This document shows positions 22,217 through 43,322 of a stretch of DNA of 43,322 bases, in pieces (within the stretch, counting starts at the first letter, position 1; every line of letters starts with the position of its first letter). A program made the translations under genes and the position numbers. Source of the DNA: a virus (Duplodnaviria > Heunggongvirae > Uroviricota > Caudoviricetes); IMG/VR virus record IMGVR_UViG_638341087_000022; one strand, given 5' to 3'. Below the pieces are notes generated by a model. That model saw only the letters and a list, made by a program, of their open reading frames with translations. It was not told the origin of the DNA and did not search any database.

Positions 22217-24281
22217 GCGTCTTGAATTAAGCGTCCGCAAAGGCTGGACACCCCCGCCGCGTATCAGTGTGCCGCAGTGGGCAGATGACTATCGTAAGCT
22301 GGCAAAAGAGGCTGGGAGCACTTCGGGAAACTGGGAAACATCGACGGTAGAAATTGCCCGCGGACCGATGCTTGCCGCGACGGAGTCCGGGGTTCATATC
22401 ATCACTGTAATGTGCTGTACCCAGTTGATGAAGACAGCACTGCTGGAAAACCTTTTTGGCTATTTTGCCCACCTCGATCCTTGTCCGATACTGCTGCTGC
22501 AGCCGAAAGAAGAAGCCGCTGAACAGTTTTCGAAAGAGCGTATTAGCCCGCTGGTAAGGGTGACGCCGGTACTGCGTAAAATCATCGGTGATTCGAAACA
22601 GAAAAGCTCGAAAGAAACCATTCTTTACAAGGCATTCACTGGCGGATTTCTGGCGCTGGCGGGTGCTGGTAGCCCTGATAACCTTGCGCGTCGTCCGATT
22701 CGTGTCCTGCTGGCGGATGAAGTGGACAAGTACCCGATAACCCGCGAAGGCGATCCAATTGCGCTGGCCGAAGAGCGTACAGCGACATTTGGCCTGACCT
22801 GGCTGTCTGTACGCGCCTGTTCGCCGACGGTGGAGGATGAGAGCCGCATTGCTGACAGCTACGCCGACTCCGATCAGCGCCGGGCATCTGTGGTTTGCCC
22901 GCACTGTGGCCACCGCCAGTTCCCCGACTTTTTCAAACACGTTCAGTGGCCGAAAGAGGGAGATAAACACCTGACTAAATCGGCGATGCTCTATTGCGAA
23001 TGCTGTGGTAGTGGCTGGTCCGAAGGACAGCGCCTCAGAGCTCTGCACACTATTCGATGGCATCAGACGCGCCCATTTGAGTGCTGCGGGGAGCGGCACT
23101 CACCGCTGATGGATTATGACCTTGCCTGGCGGGCGGCAGACGAGGGCAGCGTTGAAAAGGTCTGGCAATGGTCAGAGTCGGAACGGCATGCGGTCTATCG
23201 CGCAATCTGCCCCTCCTGTGGAAAGGAGGCAGTCGATAACCACCACGCGGGGTACCAGGCATCCAAGCTTTTCAGCCCCTGGCAAAAAGATAAGCCGTCG
23301 GATATTGCGAAAAAATATATCGATGCGAAGGGCGATCCGGATAAGGAACAGGCGTGGTGGAATACCCAGATGGGGCTTCCGCACCGACCTAATCATGGGA
23401 AACAGCTCCCTGTTGATGTTCTGCTGGCGCGCCGGGAAATATTTCCGGCCGTCGTTCCGGACGGGGTGGCATTGTTAACAGCTGGAGTTGATACCCAGGA
23501 CGATCGCTTCGAAATTACGATCACCGGCTGGGGGAGAGATGAAGAATCGTGGTCGGTCGCGCATGACGTTATTTATGGTGACCTTGAGACGGAAGAACCC
23601 TGGAAGCGACTGGATGCATACCTGAAACAGATCTGGCGACGTGGTGACGGGCGCGGCCTGAATATCATGGCAACGTGCATGGACTCCGGCGGCCACCATA
23701 CGCAGAAGGTATACGAATTCGCCAAAGAGCGTCTTGGCCGTCGTGTCTGGGCAATTAAGGGGGAGTCTGCACAGGGAGGCAAACGCAATCCTGTCTGGCC
23801 GACCAAACGACCATCATCGAAAAGCAAAGCCAGTTTCCGCCCTGTCATTCTGGGGGTTAACTCAGCGAAAGACGTGATACGCGGTCGCCTGCATCTTGAG
23901 CCACCCAAACCTGGCGCCGCCGCTGCGGGTTATATGCATTTTCCTGACGATCGCGATCTCGGGTACTTCAATCAGCTGCTGGCGGAGCGACTGGTTTACA
24001 AAGTCATTTCCGGGCAGCGGTACAGTATCTGGGAAGCAATACCAGGACGAGCTAACGAAGCGCTTGACTGCCTCGTTTACAGCTATGCCGCGCTGTGCGG
24101 TCTCAAACATATGGGGTTAAAACTCAACGTCCGGGCCGCCAACCTCGAAGCCGATCCGGATAAGTTCCTGCCAGCGCCAGTTGGACAGGAAGAAAAAATC
24201 AATTACGAGCTGCCGGGTGCGGTTATTGAAGAACCAGCGCCGGTCAAACGTAAGCGAATATCGCAACTCCTGCCGAAATAA
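22158..24281 (+). CDS. Terminase large subunit, lambda gpA family
   Basis: Zn-finger-like CPHCGHRQF region and overall colinearity with lambda A; start taken at the first ATG (22158), overlapping the Nu1-like gene. Confidence 0.8.
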   Translation: MSTNTSQSSESQSLTRQKIERLELSVRKGWTPPPRISVPQWADDYRKLAKEAGSTSGNWETSTVEIARGPMLAATESGVHIITVMCCTQLMKTALLENLFGYFAHLDPCPILLLQPKEEAAEQFSKERISPLVRVTPVLRKIIGDSKQKSSKETILYKAFTGGFLALAGAGSPDNLARRPIRVLLADEVDKYPITREGDPIALAEERTATFGLTWLSVRACSPTVEDESRIADSYADSDQRRASVVCPHCGHRQFPDFFKHVQWPKEGDKHLTKSAMLYCECCGSGWSEGQRLRALHTIRWHQTRPFECCGERHSPLMDYDLAWRAADEGSVEKVWQWSESERHAVYRAICPSCGKEAVDNHHAGYQASKLFSPWQKDKPSDIAKKYIDAKGDPDKEQAWWNTQMGLPHRPNHGKQLPVDVLLARREIFPAVVPDGVALLTAGVDTQDDRFEITITGWGRDEESWSVAHDVIYGDLETEEPWKRLDAYLKQIWRRGDGRGLNIMATCMDSGGHHTQKVYEFAKERLGRRVWAIKGESAQGGKRNPVWPTKRPSSKSKASFRPVILGVNSAKDVIRGRLHLEPPKPGAAAAGYMHFPDDRDLGYFNQLLAERLVYKVISGQRYSIWEAIPGRANEALDCLVYSYAALCGLKHMGLKLNVRAANLEADPDKFLPAPVGQEEKINYELPGAVIEEPAPVKRKRISQLLPK

Positions 24282-36656: not shown

Positions 36657-37738
36657 ATGCAGACAGCGATCTGGATGTTGTTTCTTTGACGGTCGACGGC
36701 AAAATCATCGAGGGGTGGGATTCTGTCCGGGTAACGCGGGGTATTGAGCGTTTTCCCTCTGATTTCGATCTTGGGCTAATGGATTACTTCCCTGGCAACG
36801 AAGATCGTCAACTCGTTGAAGAGGGAATGTCTTGTGAAGTTCGTATCGGAGATGATCTGACACTGACGGGATATGTTGATGACTGGGAACCCGCACTATC
36901 GCGCTCCCGCCATGAGGTCCGCGCCACGGGCAGGAGCAAATGTCAGGACCTGGTGGATTGCTCAGCCGAGTGGCCTAACAACGTCATCAATGCCAGTAAT
37001 GCGCTTGAAATTGCTTCTCGCCTGGCATCCTACTACGGCATCACCGTAACCACGGATGTTGATGAACTTGTGAAGGTACCCCAGTTCACTCTGAACTGGG
37101 GTGAGTCTCCGCAAGAAGTCATCGATCGGGTGGCCAGATGGTCTGCTCTGCTTTACTACGATCAGCCCGATGGAAACCTGTTACTGACCCGGGTGGGAAC
37201 ACGTCGTGCGGCAAGTGGGATAGCCGAAGGGGTAAATGTCGAGCAGGCATACTACCGCAAATCGATGGCTGACAGGTTTTCAGATTATGTCGGTGTATCA
37301 ATGAGCGTTTCTCCAATTGCAGGGTATTCGCCTGATACGGCCTATGACGCTGTGACTCTGGCAACGGCGAGAGATCCGGAGGCCGCCCGCATGCGGTACC
37401 GAAAACATATATCGATTGTGGAAAGTACCCTGATGGCTACTCAACAGGCACAAAGTGCGATCGACTGGGAAATGAACCGGCGGTACGGACGTTCAAAACA
37501 GCTCTCGGTAACCATCGATTCCTGGCGGGATAAAGACGGGAAACTGTGGGAACCAAACACATTGATCCCCGTTGATCTTCCCACCTTACGGTTGCCGAAG
37601 ACTGAATTGCTACTGGCAGAAGTCACCTATATGCGCGATGACTACGGCACCCATGCACGCATGACGCTGATGCCGCCTGAAGCATTCTCCATTCAGCCAT
37701 ATGCCTTCTACCAGAACCTGGCGGGATTCAATACATGA
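36653..37738 (+). CDS. Tail/baseplate protein (Mu P / P2 D-like)
   Basis: Size and position between the DNA circulation and baseplate V genes. Confidence 0.65.
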   Translation: MNADSDLDVVSLTVDGKIIEGWDSVRVTRGIERFPSDFDLGLMDYFPGNEDRQLVEEGMSCEVRIGDDLTLTGYVDDWEPALSRSRHEVRATGRSKCQDLVDCSAEWPNNVINASNALEIASRLASYYGITVTTDVDELVKVPQFTLNWGESPQEVIDRVARWSALLYYDQPDGNLLLTRVGTRRAASGIAEGVNVEQAYYRKSMADRFSDYVGVSMSVSPIAGYSPDTAYDAVTLATARDPEAARMRYRKHISIVESTLMATQQAQSAIDWEMNRRYGRSKQLSVTIDSWRDKDGKLWEPNTLIPVDLPTLRLPKTELLLAEVTYMRDDYGTHARMTLMPPEAFSIQPYAFYQNLAGFNT

Positions 37739-40538: not shown

Positions 40539-41330
40539 ATGCTCCGAATCGGGCAAGTCGAAGCCACTGCAACGCAGGATGGCAAATATACTGATGGAAG
40601 TGTTGCTGGTGGTATTGCCGCAACGAGGCTGCGGGCAGCAGCGTTTAATGCCATGCAGGAAGAGTTAGCGCATATCGTAGAGTCAGCAGGATTGGCGCTC
40701 GACATTAACGATATGACTCAGGTTTTAAAAGCCATTCAAAAACTCACACTGAGCCGTGCAAACCCATTTGCCGATATCAAATCAGATGGTGCAGCGGCGA
40801 TTTCTACGGCTCTCACAAACCTTGGTTTGGGAGAAGGTTCAGCATTACCTGTTGGTGCACCTGTTCCGTGGCCTTCAGAGACACCTCCAACAGGCTGGCT
40901 GAAATGCAACGGAGCAGCTTTTTCTGCTGAAGAATACCCGGAACTGGCAAAGGCTTACCCGACAAATAAATTGCCTGATTTACGTGGTGAGTTTATTCGT
41001 GGCTGGGATGATTCTAGAGGGATTGATACGGGGCGTTCATTGCTAAGTGGTCAGGCTGCAACATTTATTCGTACAGCTTTGCAGGATTATTACGGTTACG
41101 ATCTGAATACTAATGTCAAAGTAGGTATCGCTTTTGCTACTGCTGATTCTGTTATAACTGTTGGAAACCCAGCTAATCCTAAAGCAGGAAATAATAGCGA
41201 TTATGTTCCTGCATCAGCAGATAACTCCATAACGGGTACTCAAAGGACAGCGGAGGATAATTTTACCGGGGCATGGATATCAATGCGCCCTCGTAACCTT
41301 TCATTTAATTACATCGTGAGGGCTGCATAA
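40539..41330 (+). CDS. Tail fibre protein: constant N-terminus (about 95 aa) joined to an invertible C-terminal segment
   Basis: GTGAGGA RBS; a recombination-site-like dyad lies inside the coding sequence at the NLGLG codons. Confidence 0.7.
   Translation: MLRIGQVEATATQDGKYTDGSVAGGIAATRLRAAAFNAMQEELAHIVESAGLALDINDMTQVLKAIQKLTLSRANPFADIKSDGAAAISTALTNLGLGEGSALPVGAPVPWPSETPPTGWLKCNGAAFSAEEYPELAKAYPTNKLPDLRGEFIRGWDDSRGIDTGRSLLSGQAATFIRTALQDYYGYDLNTNVKVGIAFATADSVITVGNPANPKAGNNSDYVPASADNSITGTQRTAEDNFTGAWISMRPRNLSFNYIVRAA
40811..40836. promoter_or_regulatory. Left inversion site (hix/gix-like)
   Basis: CACAAACC-TT-GGTTTGGGAGAA has dyad symmetry and shares the half-site TTGGTTTGGG with the inverted right site. 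Confidence 0.45.
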
Positions 41331-41932
41331 TGGATAATGCCGTATTAAATAGCGAGCTTATTGCCACGAAGGCGGGGGATATTACTGTCTATAATTATAA
41401 TGGTGAAACACGAGAATATATTTCCACATCAACTGAATATCTTGCTGTTGGTGTCGGTATTCCGGCATGTTCCTGTTTAGATGCACCAGGAACATATAAA
41501 GCTGGTTATGCCATCTGCCGCTCTGCGGATTTAAACTCATGGGAATATGTGCCAGACCATCGCGGAGAAATCGTCTATAACACCGAAACGGGAGACGCCA
41601 AAGAAATCACAACTCCGGGTGATTACCCCGAAAATACAACCACTATCGCCCAGTTAACGCCATACGATAAATGGGATGGTGAGAAATGGGTGACCGATAC
41701 TGAGGCACAGCATTGCGCCGCAGTAGACGCGGCAGAAGCACAGCGCCAGTCACTGATTGATGCAGCAATGGCTTCCATTAGTCTGATTCAGCTGAAATTA
41801 CAGGCCGGGCGGAAACTGACGCAGGCAGAAACAACCCGGCTTAACGCTGTGCTGGATTACATTGACGCGGTGACGGCAACAGATACCAGCACCGCGCCGG
41901 ATGTCATCTGGCCTGAACTGCCGGAGGCGTAG
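41330..41932 (+). CDS. Tail fibre assembly protein (Tfa)
   Basis: Conserved C-terminus LDYIDAV...TSTAPDVIWPELPEA; directly follows the tail fibre gene. Confidence 0.75.
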   Translation: MDNAVLNSELIATKAGDITVYNYNGETREYISTSTEYLAVGVGIPACSCLDAPGTYKAGYAICRSADLNSWEYVPDHRGEIVYNTETGDAKEITTPGDYPENTTTIAQLTPYDKWDGEKWVTDTEAQHCAAVDAAEAQRQSLIDAAMASISLIQLKLQAGRKLTQAETTRLNAVLDYIDAVTATDTSTAPDVIWPELPEA

Positions 41933-42374
41933 GCCATTCAATATCTGGCGTACCGGAAGTATCGACCATTTCCAGTGCGTCCAGGTAATCCAGCCACGCG
42001 TTATACTGTACCTTTTCGGCGTCTTTCAGCCGTCCCATTGCAGCTTTTCCCGGCCATTGCTTGCTGTTCATGTACTCGTTAGCCTGGTCGATTAGCAGCT
42101 GTTTTTGTGCTTCAGCTGCTGCAACAAGTTGATCGTGCGTTGGCGGCGGAATATCACCCCAGGCAGGAAAACCATCTTCACCAGCAATGCGGATTTTCCC
42201 TTTCGGTGGTTTGCCTGAATACTCAACAAATAGTTCTTCATCAACCTCCTTAGCATTGTCAAAATTCATTCCATTTGATTCATAAATTTCCTTCATAGCT
42301 ATCGGACAGAAAGCATTTGTAGATACATCATAAAAATATTTATTCATTCTAATTATCTCCCGATAGCAATCCAT
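41904..42374 (-). CDS. Alternative tail fibre assembly protein (Tfa') on the inverted side
   Basis: C-terminus WLDYLDALEMVDTSGTPDIEWPTPP parallels Tfa; convergent with and overlapping the Tfa 3' end. Confidence 0.7.
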   Translation of the reverse strand: MDCYREIIRMNKYFYDVSTNAFCPIAMKEIYESNGMNFDNAKEVDEELFVEYSGKPPKGKIRIAGEDGFPAWGDIPPPTHDQLVAAAEAQKQLLIDQANEYMNSKQWPGKAAMGRLKDAEKVQYNAWLDYLDALEMVDTSGTPDIEWPTPPAVQAR

Positions 42375-42721
42375 CTCGCGTAGGCGAAATTCGCGTTGCC
42401 TAATGAGTTTAACAGTCTAAAAGAACTGGTGGTGTTAGCTTTTGCGGCAAAGTGAACCGGTCCGTTAGGCGCGTCAGGATTGTCATACGTGGCAACAATC
42501 TGGATAGAGCCTAAATCCGTAAACGCTATCGGGAACGGATTTGTCTGAACTTCACCAACCTGACCTGATAACGCAGTACCCCACTGAATTATTACGCCAC
42601 TGGGCAGGCGCTGCCACCCTGAACCGCTTGAAAAGCTGGTCATGTCAGGGATTTGTCCAGCACCTGTACCCACATTTTTTGTTGCTGCTGTACCCAAACC
42701 AACCTTTTTTATAACCATCAA
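42353..42721 (-). CDS. Alternative tail fibre C-terminal segment (no own start expected; fused to the constant part after inversion)
   Basis: Begins at the right inversion site with ...KKVGLGTAATKNVGTGAG, matching the NLGLGEG junction of the expressed fibre; the track start is TTG. Confidence 0.6.
   Translation of the reverse strand: MMVIKKVGLGTAATKNVGTGAGQIPDMTSFSSGSGWQRLPSGVIIQWGTALSGQVGEVQTNPFPIAFTDLGSIQIVATYDNPDAPNGPVHFAAKANTTSSFRLLNSLGNANFAYARWIAIGR
42689..42714. promoter_or_regulatory. Right inversion site (hix/gix-like), inverted relative to the left site
   Basis: Reverse complement reads AAAAAAGG-TT-GGTTTGGGTA, sharing TTGGTTTGGG with the left site. Confidence 0.4.
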
Positions 42722-42743
42722 AAATCTGGTGATGCTTCGCCGT

Positions 42744-42768
42744 TTCTCCTGTTTTCATAACAGGAGAA
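42744..42768 (+). promoter_or_regulatory. Perfect 10-bp-stem hairpin covering the invertase RBS
   Basis: TTCTCCTGTT-TTCAT-AACAGGAGAA; the AGGAGA Shine-Dalgarno of the invertase lies in the 3' arm. Confidence 0.4.
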
Positions 42769-42773
42769 ATCCC

Positions 42774-43322
42774 ATGATTTACGGTTATGCCCGAGTATCA
42801 ACAAACCACCAGGACACTGAATTGCAACTAACGGCGCTCAAGTCAGCGGGTTGTGAGAAAATTTTTGAAGAGCATGCCAGCGGGAGGAAATCGAATCGGC
42901 CGGTTCTAAAACGGCTGATCGCCACTATGCAGCCGGGGGATGAACTGGTGGTCTGGAAGCTGGACAGGATAGGCCGCAACGTTCTGCATGCGCTGTTGAT
43001 GTTCCAGCAGTTACAGGAAAAGGGTATCAACTTCCGCAGTATTACCGATGGCGTGGATCTCAAAACAGCCAGCGGCCGCTATAACTTTCGTAACATCCTT
43101 TCCGCAGCACAATATGAATCTGATCTTAATAGCGAACGTACCTTAGCAGGGCTGGCCGTAGCCAGGGCAAAAGGGCGAGTTGGTGGTCGCAGGCCTAAGT
43201 TCACGGATGAGCAATGGCGGGAAATGGGGGAGCGGATGGCAACCGGTGAATCACGACAAAGCGTATCAAAAACGTATGGAGTAGGGCTCTCAACTCTGTA
43301 TAAAAAGTTTCCAGCTAGCTGA
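42774..43322 (+). CDS. Serine DNA invertase, Hin/Gin/Pin family (182 aa)
   Basis: N-terminus MIYGYARVSTNHQD with the catalytic Ser context; C-terminal HTH; true start is the internal ATG of track ORF 42642..43322. Confidence 0.85.
   Translation: MIYGYARVSTNHQDTELQLTALKSAGCEKIFEEHASGRKSNRPVLKRLIATMQPGDELVVWKLDRIGRNVLHALLMFQQLQEKGINFRSITDGVDLKTASGRYNFRNILSAAQYESDLNSERTLAGLAVARAKGRVGGRRPKFTDEQWREMGERMATGESRQSVSKTYGVGLSTLYKKFPAS

What the first reader, a model, noticed from the sequence alone, without database searches (positions are those of the whole stretch)
42744..42776. Perfect hairpin sequestering the invertase ribosome-binding site
Seen: TTCTCCTGTT-TTCAT-AACAGGAGAA (10-bp perfect stem) places the AGGAGA Shine-Dalgarno of the invertase in the 3' arm, 6 nt before the ATG. 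Inference: translational damping of the invertase, or a protein-binding palindrome; it does not fit hix/gix site architecture.
Basis: inference. Interest (0 to 1): 0.4.

Follow-up and report, generated by a model that had tools for sequence, protein, structure and literature searches.

The report
Hairpin masking invertase ribosome-binding site
A perfect, strictly conserved 11-bp hairpin hides the ribosome-binding site of a phage tail-fibre DNA-invertase gene, most likely to keep this switching enzyme at a trickle; this is a familiar kind of control, and the same repeat is already marked, with no function given, as 'IR3' in phage phi80.

Summary
A perfect palindrome sits at 42743-42769 (arms 11 bp, not 10; loop TTCAT). 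The strong Shine-Dalgarno AGGAG (42762-42766) lies in its 3' arm, and the ATG of a 182-aa Gin/Pin-type serine invertase is at 42774. About 0.075 such hairpins are expected per window by chance. In 2.9 million viral contigs the exact palindrome occurs 90 times, each time directly upstream of this invertase type. Across 72 distinct relatives the 20 core stem bases are essentially invariant (diversity 0.03, against 0.37 at third codon positions). As RNA the stem has a free energy of -15.5 kcal/mol and pairs the SD with probability 0.98, above all 49 control genes. A second small hairpin lies just upstream, is terminator-like, and shows C-G/U-G/U-A covariation. The two-hairpin layout resembles the IS200 transposase leader. 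Best reading (0.5): an RNA stem that throttles invertase translation and shields it from the late tail-fibre operon that reads into it. Main rival (0.2): a 12+1+12 bp pseudo-recombination site bound by the invertase, because its outer 7-mer TTCTCCT equals that of real half-sites. Function is untested. GenBank's phi80 record already annotates the repeat. Modest interest.

The parts
42743..42753 (+). 5' arm of the palindrome (TTTCTCCTGTT). It contains the anti-SD CUCCU.
   Evidence: Invariant in 72 distinct relatives apart from one T->C variant. A second lineage has a G->A variant.
42754..42758 (+). Loop TTCAT.
   Evidence: Varies at 2 of 5 positions among relatives: TTCAT 46, TTTAC 32, TTCAC 11, TTTAT 1.
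42759..42769 (+). 3' arm of the palindrome (AACAGGAGAAA).
   Evidence: The inner 10 nt are invariant in all relatives. The outermost base co-varies with its partner, U-A to C-G.
42762..42766 (+). Shine-Dalgarno AGGAG, 7 nt before the ATG and fully inside the stem.
   Evidence: Mean paired probability of -15 to -5 is 0.98.
42774..43322 (+). DNA invertase gene of the PinL type (182 aa, serine recombinase). The window ends at its stop codon.
   Evidence: Pfam Resolvase plus HTH_7. 99.8% nt identity to the HK225 invertase region and 94.8% to phi80 pinL. About 52% aa identity to Cin and 51% to Gin.
42728..42741 (+). Upstream hairpin 1, GGTGA-TGCT-TCGCC (-6.9 kcal/mol), followed by the T-rich 5' arm of the palindrome. 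It is terminator-like.
   Evidence: The middle pair is C-G in 15 leader types, U-G in 4 and U-A in 1. U-G pairs would be C-A mismatches on the - strand.
42689..42714 (.). Proximal recombination (crossover) site, TGTACCCAAACC AA CCTTTTTTATAA.
   Evidence: Lies at a fixed offset of -85 from the ATG in relatives. The usual form is TTCTCCCAAACC AA CCTTTTTTATAA.
40810..40835 (.). Distal recombination site, CTCTCACAAACC TT GGTTTGGGAGAA, inside the tail-fibre gene 40539-41330.
   Evidence: The segment between the two sites carries two tail-fibre C-termini and two assembly genes in opposite orientation.
42708..42736 (+). Candidate weak sigma-70 promoter (inferred only): -35 TTTATA (42708-42713), 17 bp spacer, -10 GATGCT (42731-42736). 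The predicted start is near 42742, at the base of the hairpin.
   Evidence: The same hexamer positions recur in most leader variants (TTTATA, TTCAAA, TTAAAA or TTGTAA, then 16-18 bp, then GATATT, GACATT, GATACT, GATGCT or GATCTC). It falls below the threshold of the scan tool.

Best explanation
The palindrome is a cis-acting leader element of a PinL-type DNA-invertase gene that works mainly as RNA. On the + strand transcript it folds into an 11-12 bp stem (-15.5 kcal/mol) that buries a strong, well-spaced Shine-Dalgarno sequence. Ribosomes can therefore load only rarely, and the invertase that flips the tail-fibre segment is made at a trickle. The late tail-fibre operon is transcribed towards this gene, and no good terminator lies in between. 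The small GC hairpin with a U-rich tail just upstream probably stops part of that read-through, and the SD trap silences whatever gets past it. This is the same two-hairpin logic as the left end of IS200. Shown here: the structure exists, it is exclusive to this gene's start, it is strongly conserved, and the SD is predicted to be occluded. Inferred: the effect on translation, the terminator role of hairpin 1, and the position of the promoter.
For: The 11-bp stem is perfect and improbable by chance. The exact palindrome was found 90 times in IMG/VR, each time 4-8 nt before an ATGATyTAyGG invertase start. Diversity in the stem arms is 0.03, against 0.18 in the loop, 0.22 in the SD-ATG spacer, 0.32 upstream, 0.37 at third codon positions and 0.087 at first and second codon positions. 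The outermost pair changes U-A to C-G on both sides in the phi80 lineage. SD paired probability is 0.98, above all 49 control start sites of the window, whose maximum is 0.83. Opening energy is 15.7 kcal/mol against a median of 6.6, second highest of 50. Hairpin 1 shows C-G/U-G/U-A covariation and a G-U variant, which work only on the + strand as RNA. The terminator scan finds no + strand terminator-like site between the end of the assembly gene (41932) and the invertase other than hairpin 1. There is an experimental precedent in IS200, which has a terminator against impinging transcription plus a stem-loop that sequesters a near-perfect SD and strongly represses translation (PMC4513863).
Against: Eight of the 12 stem pairs never vary, so they say nothing about pairing. 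No G-U variants occur in the core stem even though seven U-A pairs could tolerate them. This hints at a sequence-specific constraint beyond pairing. The only two natural stem variants (C-A and A-C mismatches) are uncompensated. The nearest outgroup invertases (62-74% identity) lack such a stem, and RNAalifold finds no consensus structure over 26 Gin/Pin-type leaders. A -15.5 kcal/mol trap would nearly abolish translation, and no release mechanism was found. The transcription start is unknown, so it has not been shown that the 5' arm is in the mRNA.
Confidence: 0.5

Rival explanations
1. The palindrome is a DNA-level operator, that is, a pseudo-recombination site. An invertase dimer would bind it (12+1+12 = 25 bp) through its helix-turn-helix domains without cutting, and would repress its own gene. 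This would resemble resolvase bound at the accessory sub-sites of res next to tnpR. It could coexist with the RNA role.
For: The outer 7-mer of both arms, TTCTCCT, is identical to that of real half-sites in the clade (TTCTCCTAAACC, and TTCTCCCAAACC is the commonest). It ranks 16 of 86622 window 12-mers on the outer seven matrix positions. The span is 25 bp, against 26 bp for real sites. Total invariance of the stem, with no G-U drift, fits protein recognition. The element sits at about +1 to +27 of the candidate promoter. From established knowledge (recalled, not tested here): the gamma-delta/Tn3 res sub-site III is a 25-bp site next to tnpR, and resolvase autoregulates.
Against: The five inner positions (AAACC), near-invariant in real half-sites, are absent, and whole-arm matrix scores are poor (ranks 24258 and 29317 of 86622). 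The GGAG in the arm is already explained by the SD, so the hexamer match is only weakly significant. There is no second copy in the window or anywhere away from this start codon. In relatives whose real sites have other outer hexamers (for example L082: TTATCG, TTCCGG) the palindrome does not change.
Confidence: 0.2
2. The hairpin is a 5'-terminal stabilising stem-loop. The invertase mRNA would start at about 42742, so the hairpin sits at its extreme 5' end and protects a rare transcript from 5'-end-dependent decay. SD occlusion would then be a side effect.
For: A positionally conserved weak promoter candidate puts the start at the base of the stem in most leader variants. A transcript starting at 42742 folds with no 5' overhang.
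Against: The promoter is only a 7 to 8 of 12 match, and the scan tool does not call it. A stabiliser has no need to contain the SD, yet the SD sits fully inside the stem. There is no expression data.
Confidence: 0.1
3. The palindrome has no regulatory function of its own. It could be a hitch-hiking remnant of the recombination cassette, an intrinsic terminator, or a flexible DNA hinge between the crossover site and the enhancer inside the invertase gene.
For: The leader centre is homologous to the non-palindromic leader of P2-like Pin genes. BLAST aligns from 42745 onward at 73%, and CTCC-N13-GGRG is shared. A few substitutions could therefore have created the palindrome.
Against: The stem is more conserved than non-synonymous codon positions (0.03 against 0.087). 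No T-run follows the stem on either strand, so it is not a terminator. Nothing here supports the hinge idea.
Confidence: 0.07

Closest known systems
Repeat 'IR3' upstream of pinL in phage phi80 (GenBank JX871397, repeat_region 23919-23929 and 23935-23945)
   Same: It is the same element. It has 11-bp arms and a 5-nt loop and ends 5 nt before the pinL ATG. The core TTCTCCTGTT/AACAGGAGAA is identical.
   Different: The outermost pair is C-G instead of T-A, and the loop is TTTAC. The record assigns no function. The genome paper could not be read.
IS200 transposase (tnpA) leader: terminator hairpin plus SD-sequestering stem-loop
   Same: It has two successive inverted repeats. The first blocks impinging transcription. 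The second buries a near-perfect SD and represses translation of a DNA-rearranging enzyme that must stay rare (PMC4513863).
   Different: The sequences are unrelated. The IS200 stem is long and imperfect and is joined by an antisense sRNA and Hfq. No conserved antisense terminator was found here, and the only - strand promoter-like match is built from coding-constrained bases. Function here is untested.
IS10/Tn10 'fold-back inhibition' of read-through transcripts (recalled from established literature, not tested here)
   Same: An upstream anti-SD segment pairs with the ribosome-binding site, so that transcripts entering from outside are not translated.
   Different: In IS10 the element's own promoter starts inside the repeat, so its own transcripts escape. 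In the PinL leader the candidate promoter would include the whole 5' arm.
hix/gix/cix/pix crossover sites of Hin/Gin/Cin/Pin invertases
   Same: It is an inverted repeat of two ~12-bp halves whose outer TTCTCC(T/C) is identical to that of the real sites of this cassette.
   Different: It is 25 bp with a single central base, not 26 bp with a 2-bp core. It lacks AAACC-NN-GGTTT. The matrix score of a whole arm is below average.
Accessory sub-sites of res (Tn3/gamma-delta resolvase) and tnpR autoregulation (recalled knowledge)
   Same: This is a non-cleaved binding site for a serine recombinase with odd spacing (12+1+12), placed next to the recombinase gene's start.
   Different: Binding has not been shown here, and invertases are not known to use accessory sites.
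Leader of P2-like Pin/Gin-type invertase genes (TGGCATCATCTCC-GGTTTTTATTCAG-GGGGGATGATC-ATG)
   Same: The centre is homologous and has the same CYCC-N13-GGRG spacing. In several lineages the 5' segment can pair with the SD and spacer.
   Different: The stems are imperfect and their register shifts between lineages. No consensus structure is found. Hairpin 1 is absent, and an invariant TGGCAT motif is present instead.

Membership tests
SD-sequestering leader hairpin (cis translational repressor, IS200-tnpA type) | The Shine-Dalgarno sequence lies inside a stable stem on the sense strand. | tested here: met
   AGGAG (42762-42766) is in the 3' arm. The stem is -15.5 kcal/mol and the SD paired probability is 0.98.
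SD-sequestering leader hairpin (cis translational repressor, IS200-tnpA type) | Both arms are present in the mRNA, so the transcription start lies upstream of the 5' arm. | not testable with these tools
   Only a weak candidate promoter, placing the start near 42742. Read-through from the tail-fibre operon is plausible. There is no transcript data.
SD-sequestering leader hairpin (cis translational repressor, IS200-tnpA type) | Pairing is maintained in evolution through compensatory change. | tested here: inconclusive
   One double change (U-A to C-G) at the stem base. Eight of 12 pairs never vary, and there are two uncompensated mismatches.
SD-sequestering leader hairpin (cis translational repressor, IS200-tnpA type) | Opening the stem raises translation, and compensatory mutations restore repression. 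| not testable with these tools
   This needs lacZ fusions or toeprinting.
hix/gix/cix/pix recombination site | 26 bp, made of two 12-bp half-sites around a 2-bp core. | tested here: not met
   25 bp with a single central C.
hix/gix/cix/pix recombination site | Conserved inner half-site AAACC / GGTTT. | tested here: not met
   The arms read TGTTTT / ATAACA. Matrix ranks are 24258 and 29317 of 86622.
hix/gix/cix/pix recombination site | Outer half-site bases of the TT(C/A)TC type, which the helix-turn-helix contacts. | tested here: met
   TTCTCCT matches real half-sites and ranks 16 of 86622 on the outer seven positions.
Intrinsic (rho-independent) terminator | A GC-rich stem followed directly by a T/U run. 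| tested here: not met
   The palindrome is followed by ATCCCATG on the + strand and ACGGCGAA on the - strand. Only the upstream hairpin 1 passes the scan, and about 1.1 such hits are expected by chance.
LexA (SOS) box | CTG-N10-CAG palindrome. | tested here: not met
   The sequence is CTG-N9-CAG. The phi80 record marks LexA sites elsewhere, not here.
RNA thermometer (fourU / ROSE) | A weak, imperfect stem over the SD that melts near 37-42 C. | tested here: not met
   The stem is a perfect 11-12 bp duplex of -15.5 kcal/mol with no internal mismatch.
Any Rfam RNA family | A covariance-model match. | tested here: not met
   No match at E up to 1 in 42300-43322.
Gin/Hin/Cin/Pin DNA invertases (the downstream gene) | An N-terminal resolvase catalytic domain with the RVS serine motif, a C-terminal HTH_7, and a flanking invertible tail-fibre segment with inverted crossover sites. 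| tested here: met
   Pfam hits. The protein starts MIYGYARVST. Sites lie at 40810-40835 and 42689-42714 around duplicated, opposed tail-fibre and assembly genes. Inversion activity itself was not tested.

The most novel reading that the evidence does not exclude
The palindrome is a dual-use element. As DNA it is a non-cleavable 12+1+12 pseudo-crossover site where the invertase binds its own start region to repress itself, as resolvase does at an accessory res sub-site. As RNA it traps the Shine-Dalgarno sequence. This would be the first accessory or operator site described for a Gin/Hin-family invertase, and it would explain why the stem sequence, and not only its pairing, is frozen.
Probability: 0.15. 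Interest if true: 0.55.

Novelty: new member of a known kind. Interest (0 to 1): 0.3.

Why it matters
Tail-fibre inversion lets a prophage hedge its host range. The switching rate is set by how much invertase is made, yet how these genes are kept at very low expression is poorly documented outside Hin, Gin and Cin. This cassette is carried by lambdoid phages (phi80, HK225, mEp237), by myovirus-type prophages such as the one in this window, and by 92 of 5426 complete E. coli genomes. It carries a compact two-hairpin leader that offers a simple, testable explanation: an SD trap plus a read-through stop, convergent with IS200. If the DNA-level reading were also true, it would extend resolvase-style autoregulation through accessory sites to the invertase subfamily. 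As it stands, the finding is a tidy example of a textbook mechanism and not a surprise.

Tried and rejected
- **Rfam:** a scan of 42300-43322 at E up to 1 found nothing.
- **Terminator reading of the palindrome:** rejected, because no T-run follows on either strand.
- **LexA box:** rejected, because the spacing is N9 and not N10.
- **RNA thermometer:** rejected, because the stem is perfect and far too stable.
- **Upstream-ORF coupling:** an in-frame ATG at 42732, and an ORF from 42642, read through the hairpin. However, the ATG exists only in the window-type leader, so I rejected it as a conserved mechanism.
- **Antisense RNA of the IS10/IS200 kind:** there is a - strand promoter-like match at 42801..42774. 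Its bases are coding-constrained, about 1.2 such matches are expected by chance, and no conserved - strand terminator follows. It is not supported.
- **Family-wide SD-trap:** other invertase leaders are only modestly more structured than controls (median SD pairing 0.60 against 0.51; the sequences are not independent). RNAalifold on 26 Gin/Pin leaders gave no consensus structure. The claim is therefore limited to the PinL lineage.
- **Search for more stem variants:**
  - A degenerate scan of IMG/VR added only two mismatch variants.
  - Distant BLAST of plasmids and phages, and of E. coli outliers, returned the same leader types.
- **Literature:**
  - The phi80 genome paper is not held.
  - No held paper contains the palindrome sequence.
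  - Keyword searches gave nothing on leader structure in invertase genes.

Full report
**What is in the sequence.** Bases 42743-42769 form a perfect inverted repeat, TTTCTCCTGTT / TTCAT / AACAGGAGAAA. As RNA, a 12th G-U pair (42742/42770) can be added. The 3' arm contains AGGAG (42762-42766). The ATG at 42774 opens a 182-aa ORF that runs to the last base of the window. That ORF has Resolvase (E 3.6e-39) and HTH_7 domains and is about 52% identical to P1 Cin and 51% to the Gin of D108 (a Mu relative).

**Chance.** Perfect hairpins of this size (arms of at least 11, loops of 3-8) are expected 0.075 times per window, and two are present. The 25-mer pattern matched in 0 of 100 shuffles.

**Genomic context.**
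- On the + strand, baseplate-like genes lead into a tail-fibre gene (40539-41330, Collar domain) and an assembly gene (41330-41932).
- These are followed by a second assembly gene and a second tail-fibre C-terminus on the - strand (41904-42374 and 42353-42721).
- Crossover sites of the pix/cix type bound this segment. They are CTCTCACAAACC TT GGTTTGGGAGAA at 40810-40835 and TGTACCCAAACC AA CCTTTTTTATAA at 42689-42714.
- This is therefore a classic invertible tail-fibre cassette with its invertase just outside the segment, as in Mu.
- The late operon is transcribed towards the invertase. The terminator scan found no + strand terminator-like site between the end of the assembly gene and the invertase, apart from a small hairpin at 42727-42742.

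**Distribution of the element.**
- The same leader and gene occur in phages HK225 (99.8% identity), mEp237 and phi80.
- They also occur in 92 of 5426 complete E. coli genomes, in several other enterobacterial genera and on a few plasmids.
- The phi80 GenBank record already marks the two arms as repeat 'IR3' directly before pinL, with no function given. I could not obtain the phi80 genome paper, and no held paper contains the palindrome sequence.
- An exact-pattern scan of 2.9 million viral contigs found the palindrome in 90 stretches. In 90 of 90 it lies 4-8 nt before an ATGATyTAyGG invertase start.
- It has no second copy in the window.
- It is absent from relatives whose 5' gene end has been swapped (mEpX1 type) and from the nearest outgroups at 62-74% identity.

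**Conservation.**
- Among 72 distinct sequences of the clade (79-100% protein identity), nucleotide diversity differs sharply by region:

| Region | Diversity |
|---|---|
| Stem, 5' arm / 3' arm | 0.036 / 0.033 |
| Loop | 0.18 |
| SD-ATG spacer | 0.22 |
| Between crossover site and hairpin 1 | 0.32 |
| Third codon positions | 0.37 |
| First and second codon positions | 0.087 |

- Twenty leader types were aligned. Eight of the 12 stem pairs never vary.
- The outermost pair switches U-A to C-G on both sides in the phi80 lineage.
- Two rare variants break a pair without compensation: T->C in L032/L271, and G->A in L270/272/273.
- The element is therefore under strong purifying selection, but the core stem gives almost no covariation signal.

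**A second hairpin.**
- Immediately upstream lies GGYGA-N4-TCGCC (42728-42741, -6.9 kcal/mol). The T-rich 5' arm of the palindrome follows it, so the simple scan calls it terminator-like.
- Its middle pair is C-G in 15 leader types, U-G in 4 and U-A in 1. Another type has a G-U pair at the base.
- The wobble forms are pairs only on the + strand RNA. On the - strand they would be C-A mismatches.
- This is the best evidence here that the leader is read, and selected, as + strand RNA.

**Predicted consequence for translation.**
- In a -50 to +15 fold the SD region is paired with probability 0.98. That is higher than at any of 49 roughly called start sites in the same window (maximum 0.83, median 0.51).
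- Forcing -15 to +3 open costs 15.7 kcal/mol, against a median of 6.6. This is the second highest of 50.
- The SD itself is strong and optimally spaced. A good SD locked in a tight stem is the usual signature of a deliberately throttled start site.
- By established thermodynamic models of ribosome-binding-site occlusion (recalled, not computed here), an excess of about 9 kcal/mol implies a drop of at least tens-fold, and possibly far more.

**Best explanation.**
- The two-hairpin layout matches the experimentally dissected left end of IS200. There, a terminator protects against impinging transcription, and a stem-loop that sequesters a near-perfect SD strongly represses transposase translation (PMC4513863).
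- I propose that the PinL leader does the same job for an invertase that must stay rare. Hairpin 1 trims read-through from the late tail-fibre operon. The palindrome blocks ribosome loading on whatever RNA carries both arms.
- A weak promoter candidate is conserved in position across most leader variants. It has a -35 in the outer half of the proximal crossover site, a 16-18 bp spacer, and a GAYNYT -10 in the loop of hairpin 1. It would start transcripts at about 42742, at the base of the stem. This is inference only, because the scan tool does not call it.

**Why I hold this at 0.5.**
- The absolute invariance of the core stem goes beyond what pairing alone needs. Seven U-A pairs could drift to U-G at little cost, as hairpin 1 does, yet none has.
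- The outer 7-mer of both arms, TTCTCCT, is identical to the outer part of real half-sites in this clade (TTCTCCTAAACC and TTCTCCCAAACC). It ranks 16 of 86622 on those matrix positions. The palindrome spans 25 bp, against 26 bp for a real site.
- A serine-recombinase dimer bound to a non-cleavable 12+1+12 site next to its own gene is what resolvase does at res (recalled knowledge).
- Against that reading, the inner AAACC that real half-sites share is missing, and whole-arm scores are poor (ranks 24258 and 29317). GGAG is already explained by the SD. The palindrome also does not change in relatives whose real sites have other outer hexamers. I give this reading 0.2, and it may coexist with the RNA role.

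**Relation to other invertase leaders.**
- BLAST aligns the leader from 42745 onward with the leader of P2-like Pin genes at 73% identity.
- Both leaders share CYCC-N13-GGRG. The comparison is CTCC-TGTTTTCATAACA-GGAGA against CTCC-GGTTTTTATTCAG-GGGGA.
- In several Pin-type lineages the segment after an invariant TGGCAT motif can pair with the SD or spacer. The register shifts between lineages, and RNAalifold finds no consensus structure.
- Those leaders are only modestly more structured than controls.
- The perfect palindrome together with hairpin 1 is thus specific to the PinL lineage and is not a trait of the whole family.

**Verdict.** The mechanism is of a well-known kind, the repeat is already annotated in phi80, and no experiment exists. 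Novelty is 'new member of a known kind' and interest is about 0.3.

Noticed in passing
window 42728-42741: A small GC hairpin, GGTGA-TGCT-TCGCC, lies directly before the palindrome. It is terminator-like and shows C-G/U-G/U-A covariation across relatives. Its loop is also the best -10 candidate for the invertase promoter.
   Followed up: partly
window 40810-40835 and 42689-42714: These are the crossover sites of the invertible tail-fibre segment. In this window the proximal site's inner half is TGTACCC, whereas most related loci have TTCTCCC there, so the segment is in the less common orientation.
   Followed up: partly
window 37078-37102: This is the only other perfect 11-bp hairpin in the window (loop 3). 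It lies inside the 361-aa ORF 36653-37738 (+).
   Followed up: no
L098-L100 and L123-L180, about -35 to -27 from the invertase start: An invariant TGGCAT motif (TGgCATnAT, resembling an extended -10) is shared by the leaders of Gin (D108), Fels-2 and P2-like Pin invertases. The bases just after it can pair with the SD or spacer in several lineages, which suggests an IS10-like trap that acts only on read-through transcripts.
   Followed up: partly
window 42642-42773: An ORF in frame with the invertase runs from ATG 42642 (and ATG 42732) through the crossover site and the hairpin without a stop codon. The ATG at 42732 is specific to this leader type and is not conserved.
   Followed up: partly
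window 42801..42774, - strand: A promoter-like match (TTGATA-16-AATCAT) points leftward across the start codon and the palindrome. It is built from coding-constrained bases, and no conserved terminator follows.
   Followed up: partly
window 43320-43322; L017-L053: The window, and many IMG/VR prophage contigs, end at or within 3 bases of the invertase stop codon. In phi80 the attP core lies about 150 bp beyond pinL, so the invertase marks the prophage edge.
   Followed up: no
L394 and L395 (E. coli chromosomes): These copies keep the full two-hairpin leader, but the inner half of the proximal crossover site is replaced (ATAGGAAC...). A tail-fibre assembly gene sits upstream on the same strand. 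The segment is probably fixed and no longer invertible.
   Followed up: no
L274, L310, L358, L371 and others from the metagenome scan: Unrelated soil and marine serine-recombinase genes that start MIYGY often carry TGCA-N7-TGCA-type palindromes 15-35 nt before the start codon. They may be res-like binding sites.
   Followed up: no
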